The notes: generated from the letters alone by a model not told the origin. A DNA stretch of 64,000 bases from Vicinamibacterales bacterium (GCA_965207265.1 OZ242279.1:4763359-4827358); one strand, 5' to 3'. Shown: positions 1 through 57,412, numbered from the stretch's first letter. Made by a program: numbers and translations.

Positions 1-87
1 AGCAAACGCGGCGGCGGCGCCGAGAAATGGTGCCGATCGCGCATGTCGATCGCGGGAGTATTGGCGCGTGAACTGGAGATGTACGGG

Positions 88-2121
88 ATGAAAGCTGTCA
101 GATCGCTGATCGCGGTGGTCGTGGCGATCGTCTTCCTCGTGGCGCCGGCGGTCGTCTTTGCGGATGGCCGCGTGGCTCTGGTGGTGGGCAACAGCACCTA
201 CGCCCACATCGGACGGTTGCCGAACCCGGACAACGACGCCCGGGACATCTCGGCGGCGCTGCGGCGGCTCGGGTTCGAGGTGACGACTGAGCTCGACGCC
301 GACCGGGTGGAACTGACCGAGGCGCTGCGCGCGTTCACGCGGCAGAGCGCCGGGGCGGACGTCTCGCTGGTCTTCTACGCGGGTCACGGCATCGAGATGG
401 ACGGCGTCAACTACCTGGTGCCGGTGGACGCGCGCCTGGAGCGCGACGTGGACGTGCGCTTCGAGACGGTGACGGTCGACGACCTGCTGGTATCGACGTC
501 GGGCGCCTCGTTGCGGCTCCTGATCCTGGATGCGTGCCGGAACAATTCGCTGGCGCGCTCGATGCAGCGCACGGCGGCGACCCGCACGGTAAGCGGCGGC
601 AGCTTCGCGGACTTGAACGAGGACCTGCTGGGGGACGAGACGCTGGTGGCGTATGCAGCCGCGGCGGGGACGACGGCGGCGGACGGCCGAGACCGGAACA
701 GCCCGTACACGGCCGCGCTGCTGTCCCACCTGGAGACTCCGCTGGAGATCGGGCTGCTGTTCCGCCGGGTACGGGCGGCGGTGCTGGCGTCGACGAACGG
801 CGCGCAGCGTCCGCACGAGTACCACTCGCTGGTGGGCGAGCACTACCTGACGCGGACGCTGGCCACCGGTGCGTCGGTCACGGTGAGCGCGGTGGTGCCA
901 GCCGACCCGGCGCCGGCGGACCCTCCGCGGGCCGACCCTCCGGAGCCGGACATCACGGCACTGCACATCGTGGCGTTGCGCGAGCGGGCCGAGGCGGGCA
1001 ATGCCGCGGCGCAGCACGAGATGGCTGAGCGGTATGCGAACGGCCGGGGCGTCGGCCGGGACTTCGGCGTCGCCATGTCGTGGTACGTGCGGGCGGCCGA
1101 ACGGGGACATGTGCCGGCACAACTGGAGGCCGGCCGGAGGTACGCCGCCGGGCGAGGCGTTGAGCGCAACGACGCGACCGCCGCGTCGTGGTTCCGGAGA
1201 GCCGCCGAGCAGGGCGATCCGCGTGCACAGCTCAACCTGGGCGTGATGTACCGCGATGGCCGCGGGGTCGCGCAGGACTACACCGCGGCGCTATCATGGT
1301 TCCGGCGGCTCGCCGATTCGGGGGACGCCGACGGAGAGGAAGCGCTCGGGGATCTGTACGAGGCCGGGCGCGGCCTCGTACAGGACGACGTTGCCGCGCT
1401 GTCGTGGTACCGCCGTGCGGCCGAGCGGGGCAGCGCATCGGCGCAGAACCGACTCGGCGTGATGTACCGCGATGGCGTTGGCGTGGCGCGGGACGACGAA
1501 GCCGCGACCGCGTGGTTTCGCATGGCGGCGGAGCAGGGCTACGCGCCAGCGCAGACTGAACTCGGCGAAAGCTACGAAGACGGACGCGGCGTAGGACGGG
1601 ACTACGGGGCTGCCGTGTCGTGGTACCGCCGGGCTGCGGAACAAGGGCATGCTCCCGGGCAGGTTGCCCTTGGCTACATGTATAAGAATGGTCGCGGAGT
1701 GGAGGAAGACGACGCGGAAGGTTTCCGATGGTACCGTCGTGCGGCCGAGCAGGGGGACGCCCGCGGGCAGAACATCCTTGGCGGTGAGTACTACTTCGGC
1801 TTGACGGTGGGGCGGGACCACGCGGAAGCGGTCCGTTGGTACCGCCGTGCGGCCGAGCAAGGTCTCGCCGTTGCACAGGGCAACCTCGGCAATATGTACA
1901 GGGACGGTGAGGGCGTGAGGCGGGACCACGTGGAGGCGGTGCGCTGGTACCGCCGCGCGGCCGAACAGGGGCAGGCCGGGGCACAATACGGCCTCGGTCG
2001 GATGTATGAGAACGGTCGCGGCGTGCGACGGGATCGCGTAGAAGCCGTTCGCTGGTATCGTCTCGCCGCCGCGCAAGGAGATTGGAGGGCGCAGGAGAGA
2101 CTGGACCGCCTTCAGAGGTGA
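88..2121 (+). CDS. secreted caspase-like peptidase (C14 family) fused to about 10-11 Sel1-type repeats
   Basis: ORF 43..2121. Start 88 preferred (GGAG about 9 nt upstream; aligns with paralog N-termini MRSVRSFVV / MRAVRPLVV). Hydrophobic signal-like N-terminus ending VVFADG. Caspase His and Cys motifs SLVFYAGHGIEMDG and LLILDACRNN. Pro-rich linker, then ~36-aa repeats of form A..WYRRAAEQG.A.AQ..LG.MY..GRGV. Confidence 0.85.
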   Translation: MKAVRSLIAVVVAIVFLVAPAVVFADGRVALVVGNSTYAHIGRLPNPDNDARDISAALRRLGFEVTTELDADRVELTEALRAFTRQSAGADVSLVFYAGHGIEMDGVNYLVPVDARLERDVDVRFETVTVDDLLVSTSGASLRLLILDACRNNSLARSMQRTAATRTVSGGSFADLNEDLLGDETLVAYAAAAGTTAADGRDRNSPYTAALLSHLETPLEIGLLFRRVRAAVLASTNGAQRPHEYHSLVGEHYLTRTLATGASVTVSAVVPADPAPADPPRADPPEPDITALHIVALRERAEAGNAAAQHEMAERYANGRGVGRDFGVAMSWYVRAAERGHVPAQLEAGRRYAAGRGVERNDATAASWFRRAAEQGDPRAQLNLGVMYRDGRGVAQDYTAALSWFRRLADSGDADGEEALGDLYEAGRGLVQDDVAALSWYRRAAERGSASAQNRLGVMYRDGVGVARDDEAATAWFRMAAEQGYAPAQTELGESYEDGRGVGRDYGAAVSWYRRAAEQGHAPGQVALGYMYKNGRGVEEDDAEGFRWYRRAAEQGDARGQNILGGEYYFGLTVGRDHAEAVRWYRRAAEQGLAVAQGNLGNMYRDGEGVRRDHVEAVRWYRRAAEQGQAGAQYGLGRMYENGRGVRRDRVEAVRWYRLAAAQGDWRAQERLDRLQR

Positions 2122-2251
2122 ACCGAGAGGAGAATCATCGGGCGGAGGTGAATTGAGATATGGCGACGTTGATTGGGACCGAGTCCCGAGGCACGGCAGC
2201 CGCGCGGCGGGCGCGCTGGCGCTCCGTTCCGCACGCCGAGGTGCCCGCGGC

Positions 2252-55768: not shown

Positions 55769-55919
55769 ACTCAACCATGCTGCACAACACGATGCCGCGA
55801 GACGCGCCGACCTGCCGCCCCAAGGAGCTGCAGCATGGCAACCTGATCGCGGTGTCGGGTCGGATAATGCCGCTTCGTTTAACCGCGAGCACCGCCGGTC
55901 ATGAAGACGCTGTAGGAAG

Positions 55920-57412
55920 ATGAGCGCAATGCGAGCCGTGAGGCCACTCGTTGTCGCCGCCCTGGTACTGGACGCCGACGGTCGTTCTGGCGGACGGCCG
56001 TGTGGCGCTGGTGGTGGGCAACAGCACCTACGCCCACATCGGACGGTTGCCGAACCCGGACAACGACGCCCTGGGACATGTCGGCGGCGCTGCGGCGGCT
56101 CGGGTTCGAGGTGACGACCGAGCTCGACGCCGACCGGGTGAAGCTGACCGAGGCGCTACGCGCGTTCACGCGGCTGAGTGCCGGCGCAGACGTGTCGCTG
56201 GTGTTCTACGCGGGCCACGGCATAGAGATGGACGGCGTCAACTACCTCGTCCCGGTGGACGCGCGCCTGGAGCGCGACGTCGACGTGCGTTTCGAAACGG
56301 TCACGGTCGACGACCTGCTGGTATCGACGTCGGGCGCGTCGTTGCGGCTCCTGATCCTGGATGCGTGCCGGAACAACCCGCTGGCGCGGTCGATGCAGCG
56401 CACGGCGGCGACCCGCACGGTGAGCGGCGGCAGTTTCGCCGACCTGAACGAGGACCCGCTGGGGGACGAGACGCTGGTGGCGTATGCGGCGGCGGCGGGA
56501 ACGATGGCGGCGGACGGGCGGGGGCGGAACAGCCCGTACACGGCGGCGCTGCTGTCGCATCTGGAGACCCCGCTGGAGATCGGCTTGCTCTTCCGTCGAG
56601 TCCGGGCGCAGGTGCTGGCGGCGACCAACGGCGACCAGCGTCCGCACGAGTACCACTCGCTGGTGGGCGAGCACTACCTGACGCGGACGCTGGCCACGGG
56701 CGCGTCGGTCACCGTGAGCGCCGCGGTCCCAGTCGAGCCCGCGCCGGCGGCCGACCCTCCACAACCCGACTTGCCGGAGCTTGACATCCCTGAGCTTGAC
56801 AGCCCTGCTCTCGGCCAGCTGGCGGAGGCGGGAGACGCTGAGGCGCAGACCGAGCTTGGTGACCGGTACGAAGACGGCCGCGGGGTGGTGCAGGACTACG
56901 CCGTTGCCTTGTCCTGGTTCCGGCGAGCGGCCGACCAAGGCCATGCCCCCGGGCAGGCTGCCCTTGGCTTCATGTACGGCACAGGTCGCGGGGTGGGGCG
57001 GGACTACGCGGAAGCGGTCCGGTGGTACCGTCGTGCAGCCGAACAGGGACACGCCGGTGGGCAGAACAACCTCGGCGTCATGCATCGCGACGGCCGCGGG
57101 GTGGTGCAGGACTACGGGGAAGCGGTCCGGTGGTTCCGTCGTGCGGCCGATCAGGGGTACGCCTCGGCTCAGAACAACCTCGGCCGGATGTACGCGACCG
57201 GCCGGGGCGTGTCGCGGGACGACGCCGAAGCTGTGCGGTGGTATCGGCGTGCTGCTGGGCAGGACAACGCCCTCGGGCAGAGCAACCTCGGCTGGATGTA
57301 CGAGAATGGTCGCGGCGTGCGCCGGGATCGTGTCGAAGCGGTCCGGTGGTATGCTCGCGCTGCGGACCAGGGCGATTCGTGGGCGCAGGAACAACTCGAT
57401 CGTCTTCGGTGA
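55920..57412 (+). pseudogene. caspase-Sel1 paralog with two N-terminal frameshifts
   Basis: Starts MSAMRAVRPLVVAALVL as in 2315. An 11-nt deletion relative to 2361..2371 and a 1-nt insertion at DNDA(R)D spread the N-terminus over three frames (ORFs 55920, 55951, 56000). From 56070 on the gene is intact through the Sel1 repeats. Confidence 0.75.

What the first reader, a model, noticed from the sequence alone, without database searches (positions are those of the whole stretch)
43..57412. Expanded family of secreted caspase-Sel1 proteins: conserved protease head, variable repeat tail, many decayed copies
Seen in the sequence:
- Four apparently intact genes: 88-2121, 2315-3817, 37105-38703 and 54386-55768.
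- Four or more remnants: 20424-20706 (minus strand), 36620-36757, 43060-43755 and 55920-57412.
- All copies share a signal-like N-terminus that runs straight into the caspase fold (ADG|RVALVVGNSTY), His/Cys dyad motifs, a Pro-rich linker and the ending EQLDRLR.
- By eye the protease domains are near-identical at DNA level, while the number of Sel1 repeats (about 5 to 11) and their sequences differ.
- Two loci are head-to-tail tandem pairs with the same intergenic block.
Inference: this is an actively duplicating and decaying family of exported proteases with diversifying protein-binding modules. That pattern fits host-interaction (eukaryotic-like repeat) or surveillance roles. The substrate and function are unknown.
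Basis: partly seen in the sequence, partly recalled or inferred. Interest (0 to 1): 0.7.

Follow-up and report, generated by a model that had tools for sequence, protein, structure and literature searches.

The report
Expanded exported caspase–Sel1 protease family
This 64-kb stretch of an acidobacterial (Vicinamibacterales-like) genome carries eight copies or remnants of one gene family, in which an exported caspase-like protease is fused to a variable Sel1 repeat array; the domain combination is already catalogued but its function is untested, so the finding is real and only moderately novel.

Summary
The window has four intact genes (88-2121, 2315-3817, 37105-38703, 54386-55768). It also has one full-length copy killed by two frameshifts (55920-57412) and three fragments (36600-36736, 43060-43741, 20306-20740 minus strand).

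Each intact protein has five parts:
- a Sec-type signal peptide;
- a 233-aa Peptidase_C14 head, whose confident predicted fold is closest to the MALT1 paracaspase, with the His/Cys dyad and three acidic pocket residues intact;
- a disordered Pro-rich linker;
- 4 to 10 exact 36-aa Sel1 units;
- a conserved C-terminal cap.

Three corrections:
- Heads are 91-93.5% identical in DNA, not near-identical (dS 0.21-0.31, dN/dS about 0.1).
- Repeat counts are 4-10, not 5-11.
- Only about 65-85 nt of the intergenic block is shared.

The copies are true paralogues, not assembly duplicates. Tails differ in unit number and order, but they are conserved between orthologues and no dN/dS exceeds 1. A syntenic orthologue shows clustered gene-conversion tracts, so the family evolves as a mosaic.

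Relatives are confined to Vicinamibacterales MAGs, where tandem pairs and decayed copies are also common. Caspase+Sel1 was catalogued in 2012. Function is unknown; my best reading is an envelope or secreted Arg/Lys-specific protease with a fused adaptor.

The parts
88..2121 (+). Copy A: intact caspase-Sel1 gene (677 aa; 25-aa signal peptide, 233-aa C14 head, linker, 10 Sel1 units, cap ERLDRLQR)
   Evidence: Translation; Pfam; unit parsing; syntenic orthologue in L002.
2315..3817 (+). Copy B: intact gene (500 aa, 5 Sel1 units). It is the downstream member of tandem pair A-B. Units 3 and 4 are a recent internal duplicate (78% aa, 80% nt).
37105..38703 (+). Copy C: intact gene (532 aa, 6 Sel1 units)
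   Evidence: Relatives 94-95% identical exist in other assemblies, and one lies in a different genomic context.
54386..55768 (+). Copy D: intact gene (460 aa, 4 Sel1 units). It is the upstream member of tandem pair D-E. Anatomy: signal peptide 54386-54460, head 54461-55159, linker plus N-cap 55160-55300, Sel1 units 55301-55732, cap and stop 55733-55768.
   Evidence: AF2 head model pLDDT 94.7. In the full-length model the Sel1 part has pLDDT above 95 and the linker below 35.
55920..57412 (+). Copy E: full-length pseudogene (5 Sel1 units) with an 11-bp deletion in the signal peptide and a 1-bp insertion at codon ~53. Inactivation is recent.
   Evidence: Alignment; three-frame translation; dN/dS still about 0.1; an intact 96%-identical relative, P0102, exists.
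43060..43741 (+). Fragment F: head residues ~65-258 plus linker, with two frameshifts. It has no signal peptide and no Sel1 part.
36600..36736 (+). 5' stub: upstream leader, signal peptide and the first 16 head codons, with the start codon mutated (ATG to AGG). It lies 370 bp upstream of copy C.
20306..20740 (-). 3' remnant: 2-3 decayed, frameshifted Sel1 units, the EQLDRLR* ending and the conserved 3' flank box.
2252..2280 (+). Conserved box GGGTCnGATAA-N11-12-GT[TC]AAC, 63 nt before the ATG of B. Candidate family promoter or operator.
   Evidence: The same box lies 50-130 nt upstream of family genes in L004, L005, L013, L016 and L080.
55857..55885 (+). The same box, upstream of E
3903..3931 (+). 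The same box after B, just upstream of the pentapeptide-repeat gene 3951-4892
38777..38805 (+). The same box after C, upstream of a 72-aa ORF
57461..57493 (+). A variant of the same box after E, with a longer spacer
20307..20335 (-). The same box after the 3' remnant

Best explanation
What it is: a lineage-specific multigene family of Sec-exported cysteine peptidases.

Anatomy of each protein:
- The signal peptide is probably cleaved at V-x-L-A|D-G.
- A complete single-chain caspase-fold (C14) domain follows. It carries the His/Cys dyad and an acidic S1 pocket, so it should cut after Arg or Lys, as paracaspases, metacaspases and orthocaspases do.
- A flexible Pro-rich linker of about 30 aa tethers this head to a Sel1 alpha-solenoid of 4-10 units.

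How it most likely works (inferred): the solenoid acts as a built-in adaptor that binds a protein partner or substrate, and different paralogues present different binding surfaces to the same protease. The site of action is the cell envelope (periplasm), possibly extending to the exterior.

How the family evolves (shown):
- tandem duplication;
- ectopic gene conversion, which keeps heads and 5' ends alike;
- gain, loss and exchange of 108-bp Sel1 units;
- frequent pseudogenisation in a genome region rich in insertion sequences.
For: Architecture:
- Pfam hits to Peptidase_C14 and Sel1 are strong.
- Sel1 units have an exact 36-aa period.
- The AF2 head model has pLDDT 94.7. Its best PDB neighbours are MALT1 paracaspase (TM 0.77-0.80 over the whole 233 aa), then caspase-7, -3 and -9.
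- By sequence, His, Cys and MALT1's Asp365 and Asp462 equivalents align.
- Three Asp residues (head positions D25, D123, D174) are kept in 87-94 of 95 diverse relatives, more often than the catalytic Cys (79 of 95). This matches the conserved acidic pocket reported for orthocaspases (PMC6426788).

Export:
- The N-terminus has a basic n-region, a hydrophobic core of about 13 residues, Pro at -6, Val at -3 and Ala at -1.
- The -1 Ala is invariant in 54 sequences.
- Heads 75-77% identical carry PG_binding_1 and PDZ tails, which are typical of envelope proteins.

Tether and adaptor:
- In the full-length model the linker has pLDDT below 35 and the Sel1 part above 95.
- Framework positions of the Sel1 unit are 94-98% conserved, while about 10 positions are highly variable.

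Selection:
- Head dN/dS is 0.07-0.14.
- Orthologous tail dN/dS is about 0.2.

Gene conversion:
- In A versus its syntenic orthologue, 38 of 64 differences fall in 471 nt of the head and 13 in 111 nt of unit 4. Background divergence is 0.9%, and the scan statistic was reached in 0 of 20000 permutations.
- C and D differ at 4 of 300 nt around the start codon but at 6-22% further on.
- Mosaic tails are seen in P0014, P0021 and P0032.

Decay.
Against: - No biochemical, expression or localisation data exist, and no signal-peptide predictor could be run.
- A Sec signal in a diderm bacterium shows only export to the periplasm, not secretion.
- P1 specificity is inferred from aligned residues and a predicted fold.
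- The third pocket residue (D174 versus MALT1 Glu500) was matched only by local sequence pattern.
- No partner or substrate is known, and no gene neighbour is conserved.
- The dN/dS values come from a simple Nei-Gojobori count on short segments.
Confidence: 0.6

Rival explanations
1. Host-directed effectors. The organism is a symbiont, and the Sel1 arrays are 'eukaryotic-like' modules that bind host proteins, which the caspase-like head then cleaves outside the bacterium.
For: - Sel1 proteins closest in sequence include secreted, host-interacting ones such as E. coli c5321/EsiB (4bwr), the Helicobacter Hcp proteins (1ouv, 1klx) and eukaryotic SEL1L.
- The family is expanded and variable.
- Vicinamibacterales occur among sponge symbionts (PMC8941161).
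Against: - The habitat of the source organism could not be established.
- Only a Sec signal is present. No recognisable signal for secretion across the outer membrane was seen in the sequence.
- Close head relatives carry peptidoglycan-binding and PDZ tails, which point to the envelope.
- Orthologous tails are conserved, not racing.
Confidence: 0.2
2. Conflict or defence module. A caspase-like protease acts as effector or sensor in anti-phage or interbacterial conflict.
For: - The copies lie in a region with Septu, type I R-M, AbiEi-like and PDC-S26-like genes.
- There are weak matches to the PADLOC 'caspase' model (E 2e-6 to 6e-6) and to the NCBIfam EACC1-type caspase model.
Against: - The defence-model scores are far below threshold (63 bits against a cut-off of 140; 24-25 bits).
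- The proteins have signal peptides.
- There is no adjacent NTPase, gasdermin or CRISPR partner, and no conserved neighbour.
- No close relative was found on viral contigs.
- The neighbourhood is simply a dump of mobile elements.
Confidence: 0.07
3. Non-catalytic scaffolds. The heads are pseudo-proteases that only bind basic peptides, and the proteins act as envelope adaptors or regulators (ExoR-like).
For: Among diverse relatives, 16 of 95 have lost Cys and 9 of 95 have lost His while keeping the acidic pocket. Pseudo-orthocaspases are documented (PMC6426788).
Against: All four intact window copies and all 54 close family members keep His and Cys invariant, with head dN/dS about 0.1.
Confidence: 0.05
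4. Assembly artefact: the copies are collapsed or duplicated reads of a single locus.
For: None beyond the repetitiveness of the region.
Against: - Copies differ by 6.5-9% in the head, have different unit numbers and different flanks, and sit up to 57 kb apart.
- An independent assembly reproduces the C locus (L079, 98-100% identical).
- The A-B pair is syntenic in another genome (L002).
Confidence: 0.01

Closest known systems
Bacterial C14 caspase homologues (metacaspase-like proteins or orthocaspases) with C-terminal Sel1 repeats, as catalogued by Asplund-Samuelsson et al. 2012 (PMC3501461) and Klemencic et al. 2019 (PMC6426788)
   Same: - The domain combination is the same. Sel1 was found in 6% of 671 bacterial sequences and was one of the four commonest partner domains.
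- N-terminal helices in those proteins were read as probable signal peptides.
- The His-Cys dyad and the acidic specificity pocket are shared.
- FGE-sulfatase is an alternative tail in both, and pseudo-variants exist in both.
   Different: - Those surveys list architectures only. They tested no function and described no within-genome expansion.
- Here a single head type (87-97% identical across species) is multiplied many times per genome in Vicinamibacterales.
- Here there is also evidence of gene conversion and many pseudogenes.
MALT1 paracaspase (caspase-like domain; PDB 3uo8, 3v4o, 8v4x)
   Same: - It is the best sequence match (E about 1e-10) and the best structural match (TM 0.77-0.80, 24% identity).
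- Both are single-chain caspase folds.
- These motifs align: ALLIGNxxY with ALVVGNSTY, YYAGHG with FYAGHG, VPVDA with VPVDA, and LLDMCRK with ILDACRN.
- The acidic S1 residues align, which implies Arg specificity.
   Different: - MALT1 is eukaryotic and cytosolic, has death and Ig domains, and is activated by scaffold-driven dimerisation.
- The window proteins have no Ig domain, which by the criteria of PMC6426788 excludes calling them paracaspases.
- The window proteins are exported and carry Sel1 repeats.
Signal-peptide-bearing Sel1-like repeat proteins (E. coli EsiB/c5321 4bwr, Helicobacter HcpB/HcpC 1klx/1ouv, Legionella-type SLR proteins 6deh/6ok3, ExoR, AlgK, MotX)
   Same: Both have 36-aa Sel1 units that form an alpha/alpha solenoid used for protein binding in the periplasm or outside the cell. 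Sequence matches are strong (E 1e-31 to 1e-102; NCBIfam partial matches).
   Different: - Those proteins have no enzymatic domain fused to the repeats.
- All NCBIfam equivalog scores are below cut-off, so none of those specific functions can be transferred.
Prc-NlpI type periplasmic protease plus TPR adaptor (functional analogy, from general knowledge; not tested here)
   Same: A helical-repeat adaptor delivers specific envelope substrates to a periplasmic protease. Relatives of the head with PDZ and PG-binding tails fit this setting.
   Different: The protease fold is different (S41 versus C14). The adaptor is a separate lipoprotein there and is fused here. There is no evidence that the substrates are peptidoglycan hydrolases.
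Multigene families kept alike by gene conversion with variable recognition modules (for example polymorphic toxin or cassette families, PMC3482391)
   Same: Both have a conserved module joined to exchangeable modules, mosaic recombination, tandem copies and fragments lying nearby.
   Different: - Here the variable part is a repeat scaffold, not a toxin domain.
- There is no immunity gene and no Rhs, PAAR, TPS or other trafficking domain.
- The fragments are decayed copies, not evident silent cassettes.

Membership tests
Peptidase family C14 (caspase / metacaspase / paracaspase / orthocaspase fold) | Significant match to the Peptidase_C14 profile over the whole domain | tested here: met
   PF00656 at 125-130 bits against a cut-off of 21.4, covering profile positions 2-228 of 233, in A-D.
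Peptidase family C14 (caspase / metacaspase / paracaspase / orthocaspase fold) | Catalytic His (in xGHG) and Cys (in DxCR/H) dyad | tested here: met
   FYAGHG and LDACRN are present in all copies, invariant in 54 family sequences, and aligned to MALT1 His415 and Cys464.
Peptidase family C14 (caspase / metacaspase / paracaspase / orthocaspase fold) | Caspase-hemoglobinase fold | tested here: met
   AF2 model with pLDDT 94.7 and pTM 0.93. Foldseek gives MALT1 (TM 0.77-0.80), then caspase-7, -3, -9 and CED-3. This is a predicted structure, not a solved one.
Peptidase family C14 (caspase / metacaspase / paracaspase / orthocaspase fold) | Proteolytic activity and P1 preference (basic for meta-, para- and orthocaspases) | not testable with these tools
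   Only inferred, from three conserved Asp residues at pocket positions.
Paracaspase (MALT1-type) | Immunoglobulin-like domain(s) next to the caspase domain (criterion used in PMC6426788) | tested here: not met
   No Ig domain appears in the Pfam scans. Resemblance to MALT1 is limited to the catalytic domain.
Sel1-like repeat (SLR) proteins | Tandem 36-aa Sel1 units matching PF08238 | tested here: met
   4-10 units with an exact 36-aa period; PF08238 E 4e-42 to 5e-92; helix-pair solenoid with pLDDT above 95.
Sec/SPI-exported proteins | Cleavable N-terminal signal peptide | tested here: inconclusive
   By inspection the n-, h- and c-regions and the V-x-A motif are canonical, and the -1 Ala is invariant. 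No SignalP-type predictor or experiment was available. There is no lipobox Cys and no twin-arginine motif.
EACC1-associated defence caspases (NCBIfam NF047832) | Score above the model cut-off and association with EACC1 or NTPase partners | tested here: not met
   58-63 bits against a cut-off of 140. No such partner lies next to any copy.
Known anti-phage systems (PADLOC) | Confident match to a system component with its partner genes adjacent | tested here: not met
   Only a 24-25-bit match to the generic 'caspase' model. The nearby Septu and R-M genes are separate systems.
Specific Sel1 proteins (MerG, ExoR, MotX, AlgK equivalogs) | Score above the NCBIfam equivalog cut-off | tested here: not met
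   All scores are below cut-off, for example MerG 240 against 350 and ExoR 99 against 450. The similarity is repeat-level only.
Eukaryotic-like effector proteins of symbionts | Host-associated organism and delivery to the host | not testable with these tools
   The source habitat was not recoverable. No secretion-system signal was identified.

The most novel reading that the evidence does not exclude
The family is a combinatorial repertoire of 'addressable' proteases. One gene-conversion-homogenised, MALT1-like Arg-specific head is paired with many Sel1 (and FGE-like, PG-binding or PDZ) address modules. Unit shuffling and head or 5'-end conversion continually generate new specificities against foreign or host proteins in the envelope or at the cell surface. 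This would be a bacterial extracytoplasmic analogue of receptor-diversified immune or effector arsenals.
Probability: 0.12. Interest if true: 0.7.

Novelty: new member of a known kind. Interest (0 to 1): 0.4.

Why it matters
- Bacterial caspase homologues are abundant. This head alone has 13,019 representative clusters at E <= 1e-30. Almost none has a known substrate or role, least of all the exported ones.
- A clade in which one nearly invariant head is fused to a set of distinct, individually conserved Sel1 arrays is a natural experiment for asking what the accessory repeats do. Swapping tails between paralogues should re-target the protease.
- The clear conversion tracts give a worked example of how modular envelope proteins stay alike in one domain while differing in another.
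- If the organism proves to be host-associated, the family would be a candidate effector set.
- None of this overturns current views. It adds a well-defined, testable family to a known but unexplored class.

Tried and rejected
- Full-length AF2 model of D from close homologues only: the head came out poorly (pLDDT 25-60), so it was not used for fold search. It was replaced by a head-only model built with 95 diverse sequences.
- Identifying the source habitat failed. Cluster look-up gave no names or accessions. Accession searches in the literature found nothing. The sample ids are uninformative. The sponge-symbiont idea therefore remains only a lead.
It was replaced by a local Sel1 HMM plus a 10-protein scan.
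- Sigma-70 promoter and terminator scan of 1-4100 found nothing useful. The promoter reading of the conserved box is therefore unsupported by consensus matching.
- Rfam and tRNA scans found no RNA element associated with the family.
- The viral-contig scan returned only a Sel1-only hit, so phage carriage was rejected.
- Concerted evolution alone was rejected as the explanation for head similarity. Some window heads are closer to a head in another species (dS 0.16-0.18) than to their own paralogues (0.23-0.31).
- Positive selection on tails was rejected for lack of evidence: dN/dS is 0.05-0.61 in all alignable units.
- A genome-wide copy count for the window's own genome could not be made.

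
Full report
OBSERVATION

The window is about 67% G+C. Translating the stated coordinates gives four intact proteins:
- A, 88-2121, 677 aa.
- B, 2315-3817, 500 aa.
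- C, 37105-38703, 532 aa.
- D, 54386-55768, 460 aa.

Each has Peptidase_C14 (PF00656, 125-130 bits) followed by Sel1 repeats (PF08238). A whole-window tblastn and a self-blastn find exactly four further loci and no others.
- E (55920-57412) keeps its ATG. It has an 11-bp deletion in the signal-peptide region and a 1-bp insertion about 40 codons later, so three frames are needed to read it.
- F (43060-43741) is a head fragment truncated at both ends with two frameshifts, one inside the AGHG motif.
- 36600-36736 is a 5' stub whose ATG has become AGG.
- 20306-20740 (minus strand) is a decayed, frameshifted run of two to three Sel1 units ending in EQLDRLR*.

The Sel1 units are exactly 36 aa with no indels. 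The counts are A=10, B=5, C=6, D=4, E=5.
- The heads are 91-93.5% identical in DNA and 94-97% in protein, not near-identical.
- The unit range is 4-10.
- The A-B and D-E spacers (193 and 151 bp) share only the last 65-85 nt before the downstream start codon.

NOT AN ARTEFACT

The copies differ by 6.5-9% in the head and have different tails and flanks. An independent assembly reproduces the C locus (L079). The A-B pair is syntenic in another genome (L002), where the B orthologue is reduced to a 40-codon stub.

ORGANISM AND SETTING

The closest genomic relatives are all long-read MAGs labelled Vicinamibacterales (Acidobacteriota), at 71-77% over the whole protein and 85-97% in the head. Elsewhere only the Sel1 part matches, apart from one 34%-identical caspase+Sel1 protein in a Spirochaetaceae MAG.

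The window is a highly plastic region. It contains:
- transposases or remnants of the IS5-like, IS110, IS1380-like, ISAzo13, IS1595, IS21 and Tn3 types;
- a resolvase, an integrase and a group II intron RNA;
- a type I R-M operon with a Septu PtuA/PtuB pair inside it.

Other genes here also leave decayed duplicates. There are two frameshifted copies of the 3' end of the Ser/Thr kinase gene. Decay is therefore a property of the region as well as of the family.

ANATOMY OF THE PROTEIN

1. N-terminus. An example is MRSVRSFVVAVLAVLVLAVPAVVLA|DGRV. It has two Arg residues, a hydrophobic core of about 13 residues, Pro at -6, Val at -3 and Ala at -1. The -1 Ala is invariant in 54 family sequences. 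This looks like a Sec/SPI signal, with no lipobox and no twin-arginine motif. No predictor was available, so export is likely but not shown.

2. Head.
- A 233-aa model built with 95 diverse homologues is confident (pLDDT 94.7, pTM 0.93).
- Its best PDB neighbours are MALT1 paracaspase (TM 0.77-0.80 over the full length), then caspase-7, -3, -9 and CED-3.
- MALT1 is also the best sequence hit (E about 1e-10). The His and Cys motifs align, as do the Asp residues in 'NDA' and 'DAC' that correspond to MALT1's S1 residues.
- Across 95 diverse relatives, three Asp residues (D25, D123, D174 of the head) are kept in 87-94 sequences, more than Cys (79) or His (86).
- This matches the published observation that orthocaspases and their pseudo-variants keep an acidic pocket for basic P1 residues (PMC6426788). 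Cleavage after Arg or Lys is therefore the expected specificity (inferred).

3. Linker. It is about 30 Pro-rich residues, predicted disordered (pLDDT below 35).

4. Tail.
- The Sel1 solenoid is modelled at pLDDT above 95. It matches solved Sel1 proteins strongly, including 6ok3, EsiB 4bwr, SEL1L and HcpC.
- Within the unit, framework positions are 94-98% conserved, while about ten positions (2, 5, 6, 9, 12, 13, 18, 21, 22, 36) are highly variable. This is the usual pattern for a binding scaffold.

HOW THE FAMILY EVOLVES

Heads.
- Window heads are under purifying selection: dN 0.013-0.035, dS 0.21-0.31, dN/dS 0.07-0.14.
- The same holds across seven other genomes (dS up to 0.6, dN up to 0.09).
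- Some window heads are closer to a head in another species (A or D versus L002, dS 0.16-0.18) than to their own paralogues. The paralogues therefore predate at least that split.

Tails.
- Alignable Sel1 units (first, second, last) are far more diverged between paralogues (dN 0.06-0.53; dS 0.2 to saturation). dN/dS stays at 0.05-0.61.
- Tails are not hypervariable between orthologues. A versus its syntenic orthologue is 97.6% identical in the tail (dS 0.05, dN/dS 0.23). C versus P0004 is 95.6% identical.
- Typing 710 units from 124 proteins gives position-specific unit types: one type is always first, two are always last, and one is nearly always second. Internal units vary.
- There are clear mosaics. 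P0014 and P0021 differ from C only in unit 2, and P0032 equals E plus one unit.
- Only B shows a recent internal unit duplication.

Gene conversion.
- In the syntenic A orthologue pair, head dS (0.17) exceeds tail dS (0.05), and the signal peptide is identical.
- The 64 nucleotide differences are clustered: 38 lie in a 471-nt tract of the head (8.1%), 13 in a 111-nt tract in unit 4 (11.7%), and 13 in the remaining 1449 nt (0.9%). No random placement in 20000 trials reached the observed clustering.
- This is the signature of ectopic gene conversion from other family members.
- C and D differ at only 4 of 300 nt around the start codon, but at 6-11% in the rest of the head and 14-22% in the tail.
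- The intact relative of E (P0102, 96% identical) carries a C/D-type rather than a B/E-type signal peptide.
- Head conservation therefore reflects both selection and conversion, and the genes are mosaics with breakpoints near domain borders.

Birth and decay.
- Tandem pairs occur here (A-B, D-E) and in other genomes (L002, L004, L013, L014).
- Of about 25 head matches in related loci, roughly 15 are uninterrupted, two are frameshifted and eight are partial.

A SHARED FLANKING BOX

A motif of about 28 nt, GGGTCnGATAA-N11-12-GT[TC]AAC, occurs six times in the window, against 0.19 expected. Every occurrence is next to a family gene or remnant. It also lies 50-130 nt upstream of family genes and just downstream of them in other Vicinamibacterales loci.

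It precedes B and E by about 60 nt. After B and C it precedes unrelated ORFs (a pentapeptide-repeat gene and a 72-aa ORF). The simplest reading is a promoter or operator that is co-duplicated with the genes. A sigma-70 consensus scan finds nothing there, so this is unproven.

THE WIDER FAMILY

- The full protein has more than 5500 database hits, and the top 120 all carry C14+Sel1.
- The head alone matches 13,019 representative clusters at E <= 1e-30.
- Heads 88-91% identical also occur with a different tail (a conserved FWQSI...FP.G.F motif, in one case followed by an FGE-sulfatase-like segment). Heads 75-77% identical occur with PG_binding_1 and PG_binding_1+PDZ tails, and one 93%-identical head with a weak, below-cut-off CarboxypepD_reg match in a tail that looks chimeric.
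- Peptidoglycan-binding and PDZ modules point to the cell envelope as the working compartment of this head clade.
- Nothing close is found on viral contigs.
- No gene neighbour is conserved. The 94%-identical relative of C sits in a completely different context.

COMPARISON WITH WHAT IS KNOWN

- The C14+Sel1 architecture was catalogued in 2012: Sel1 occurred in 6% of 671 bacterial caspase homologues, and N-terminal helices were read as probable signal peptides (PMC3501461). It was seen again in a metagenomic survey (PMC4933709).
- Orthocaspases are known to cut after basic residues and to have pseudo-variants (PMC6426788).
- No function has been assigned to the Sel1-fused, exported forms.
- The head is MALT1-like in fold but is not a paracaspase by the Ig-domain criterion.
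- It is not a member of the EACC1-type defence caspases (63 bits against a cut-off of 140) or of any PADLOC system.
- The Sel1 part does not reach any NCBIfam equivalog cut-off.

MECHANISM

Best-supported reading (shown and inferred steps marked):
- An exported (likely), Arg/Lys-specific (inferred) caspase-fold peptidase is tethered by a flexible linker (predicted) to a Sel1 adaptor.
- The adaptor selects the partner or substrate (inferred by analogy with Sel1/TPR adaptors such as NlpI-Prc).
- Different paralogues supply different adaptors.

Rivals:
- Host-directed effectors: possible, but the habitat is unknown.
- Defence module: unlikely.
- Catalytically dead scaffold: unlikely here, because the dyad is invariant.
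- Assembly artefact: refuted.

VERDICT

This is a real, well-delimited paralogous family whose evolutionary dynamics can now be described, but whose domain architecture is already known and whose function is untested. I rate it a new member of a known kind, with interest of about 0.4.

Noticed in passing
window 12357-18104 (-): A Septu pair (PtuB 13820-14665, PtuA 14666-16273; PADLOC E 4e-62 and 6.5e-176) sits between hsdM (12357-13853) and hsdS (16263-18104) of a type I R-M operon. One defence system is nested inside another.
   Followed up: partly
window 26793-27279, 28277-28725, 32776-33317: Three copies (85-94% nt) of the 3' end plus downstream flank of a Ser/Thr kinase gene. Only the copy at 32776 belongs to an intact gene (30361-33063); the other two are frameshifted fragments. 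Other families in this region also leave decayed duplicates.
   Followed up: partly
window 61028-61171 (+): Rfam group II intron D1-D4-4 match (78 bits, E 1.9e-15) between an IS1595-type transposase gene (59914-60669) and an integrase gene (61298-62305, minus strand). No intron-encoded reverse transcriptase was looked for.
   Followed up: no
window 2252, 3903, 38777, 55857, 57461 (+), 20335 (-); degenerate copy 50027-50055 (+): A conserved ~28-nt box, GGGTCnGATAA-N11-12-GT[TC]AAC, flanks family genes here and in other Vicinamibacterales genomes. It also precedes unrelated ORFs (pentapeptide-repeat gene 3951-4892; a 72-aa ORF after C). One degenerate copy lies by the FG-GAP gene. It may be a promoter or operator, or a recombination site.
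   Followed up: partly
window 33941-35488 (+) and 50132-51592 (-): Two FG-GAP repeat paralogues, 65.6% identical in DNA and in inverted orientation. The first is followed by a Big_2 protein gene (35188-36474) directly upstream of the 5' stub and copy C.
   Followed up: no
window 7704-7937 and 9054-9287: A 235-bp inverted repeat (76% identity) in a lower-G+C stretch without Pfam matches. It may be the ends of an unrecognised mobile element.
   Followed up: no
window 48357-49673 (+): A PD-(D/E)XK nuclease-family protein matching the PADLOC candidate system PDC-S26 (E 3e-39).
   Followed up: no
database relatives P0140-P0248: Among 95 diverse relatives of the head, the catalytic Cys is replaced in 16 (by Ser, Ala, Asn, Asp or Gly) and His in 9, while the three pocket Asp residues persist. 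Pseudo-orthocaspases are therefore common in this head clade.
   Followed up: partly
database relatives P0125, P0127, P0128, P0134, P0139, P0144, P0145, P0149; loci L011, L013: Nearly the same head (75-91% identical) is fused to other tails. These include a conserved 'FWQSI...DPADF.AYL..FP.G.F' motif (with an FGE-sulfatase-like segment in one), PG_binding_1, and PG_binding_1+PDZ. Several database 'proteins' are chimeras or frameshifted Sel1 tails (P0002, P0037, P0123, P0131).
   Followed up: partly
L002 5100-8031: In the related genome the B orthologue is cut after about 40 codons. It is followed by a gene with repeated 'GNQSPTGIWSDGTTMWV.D...KLYAY' units, which look beta-propeller-like.
   Followed up: no
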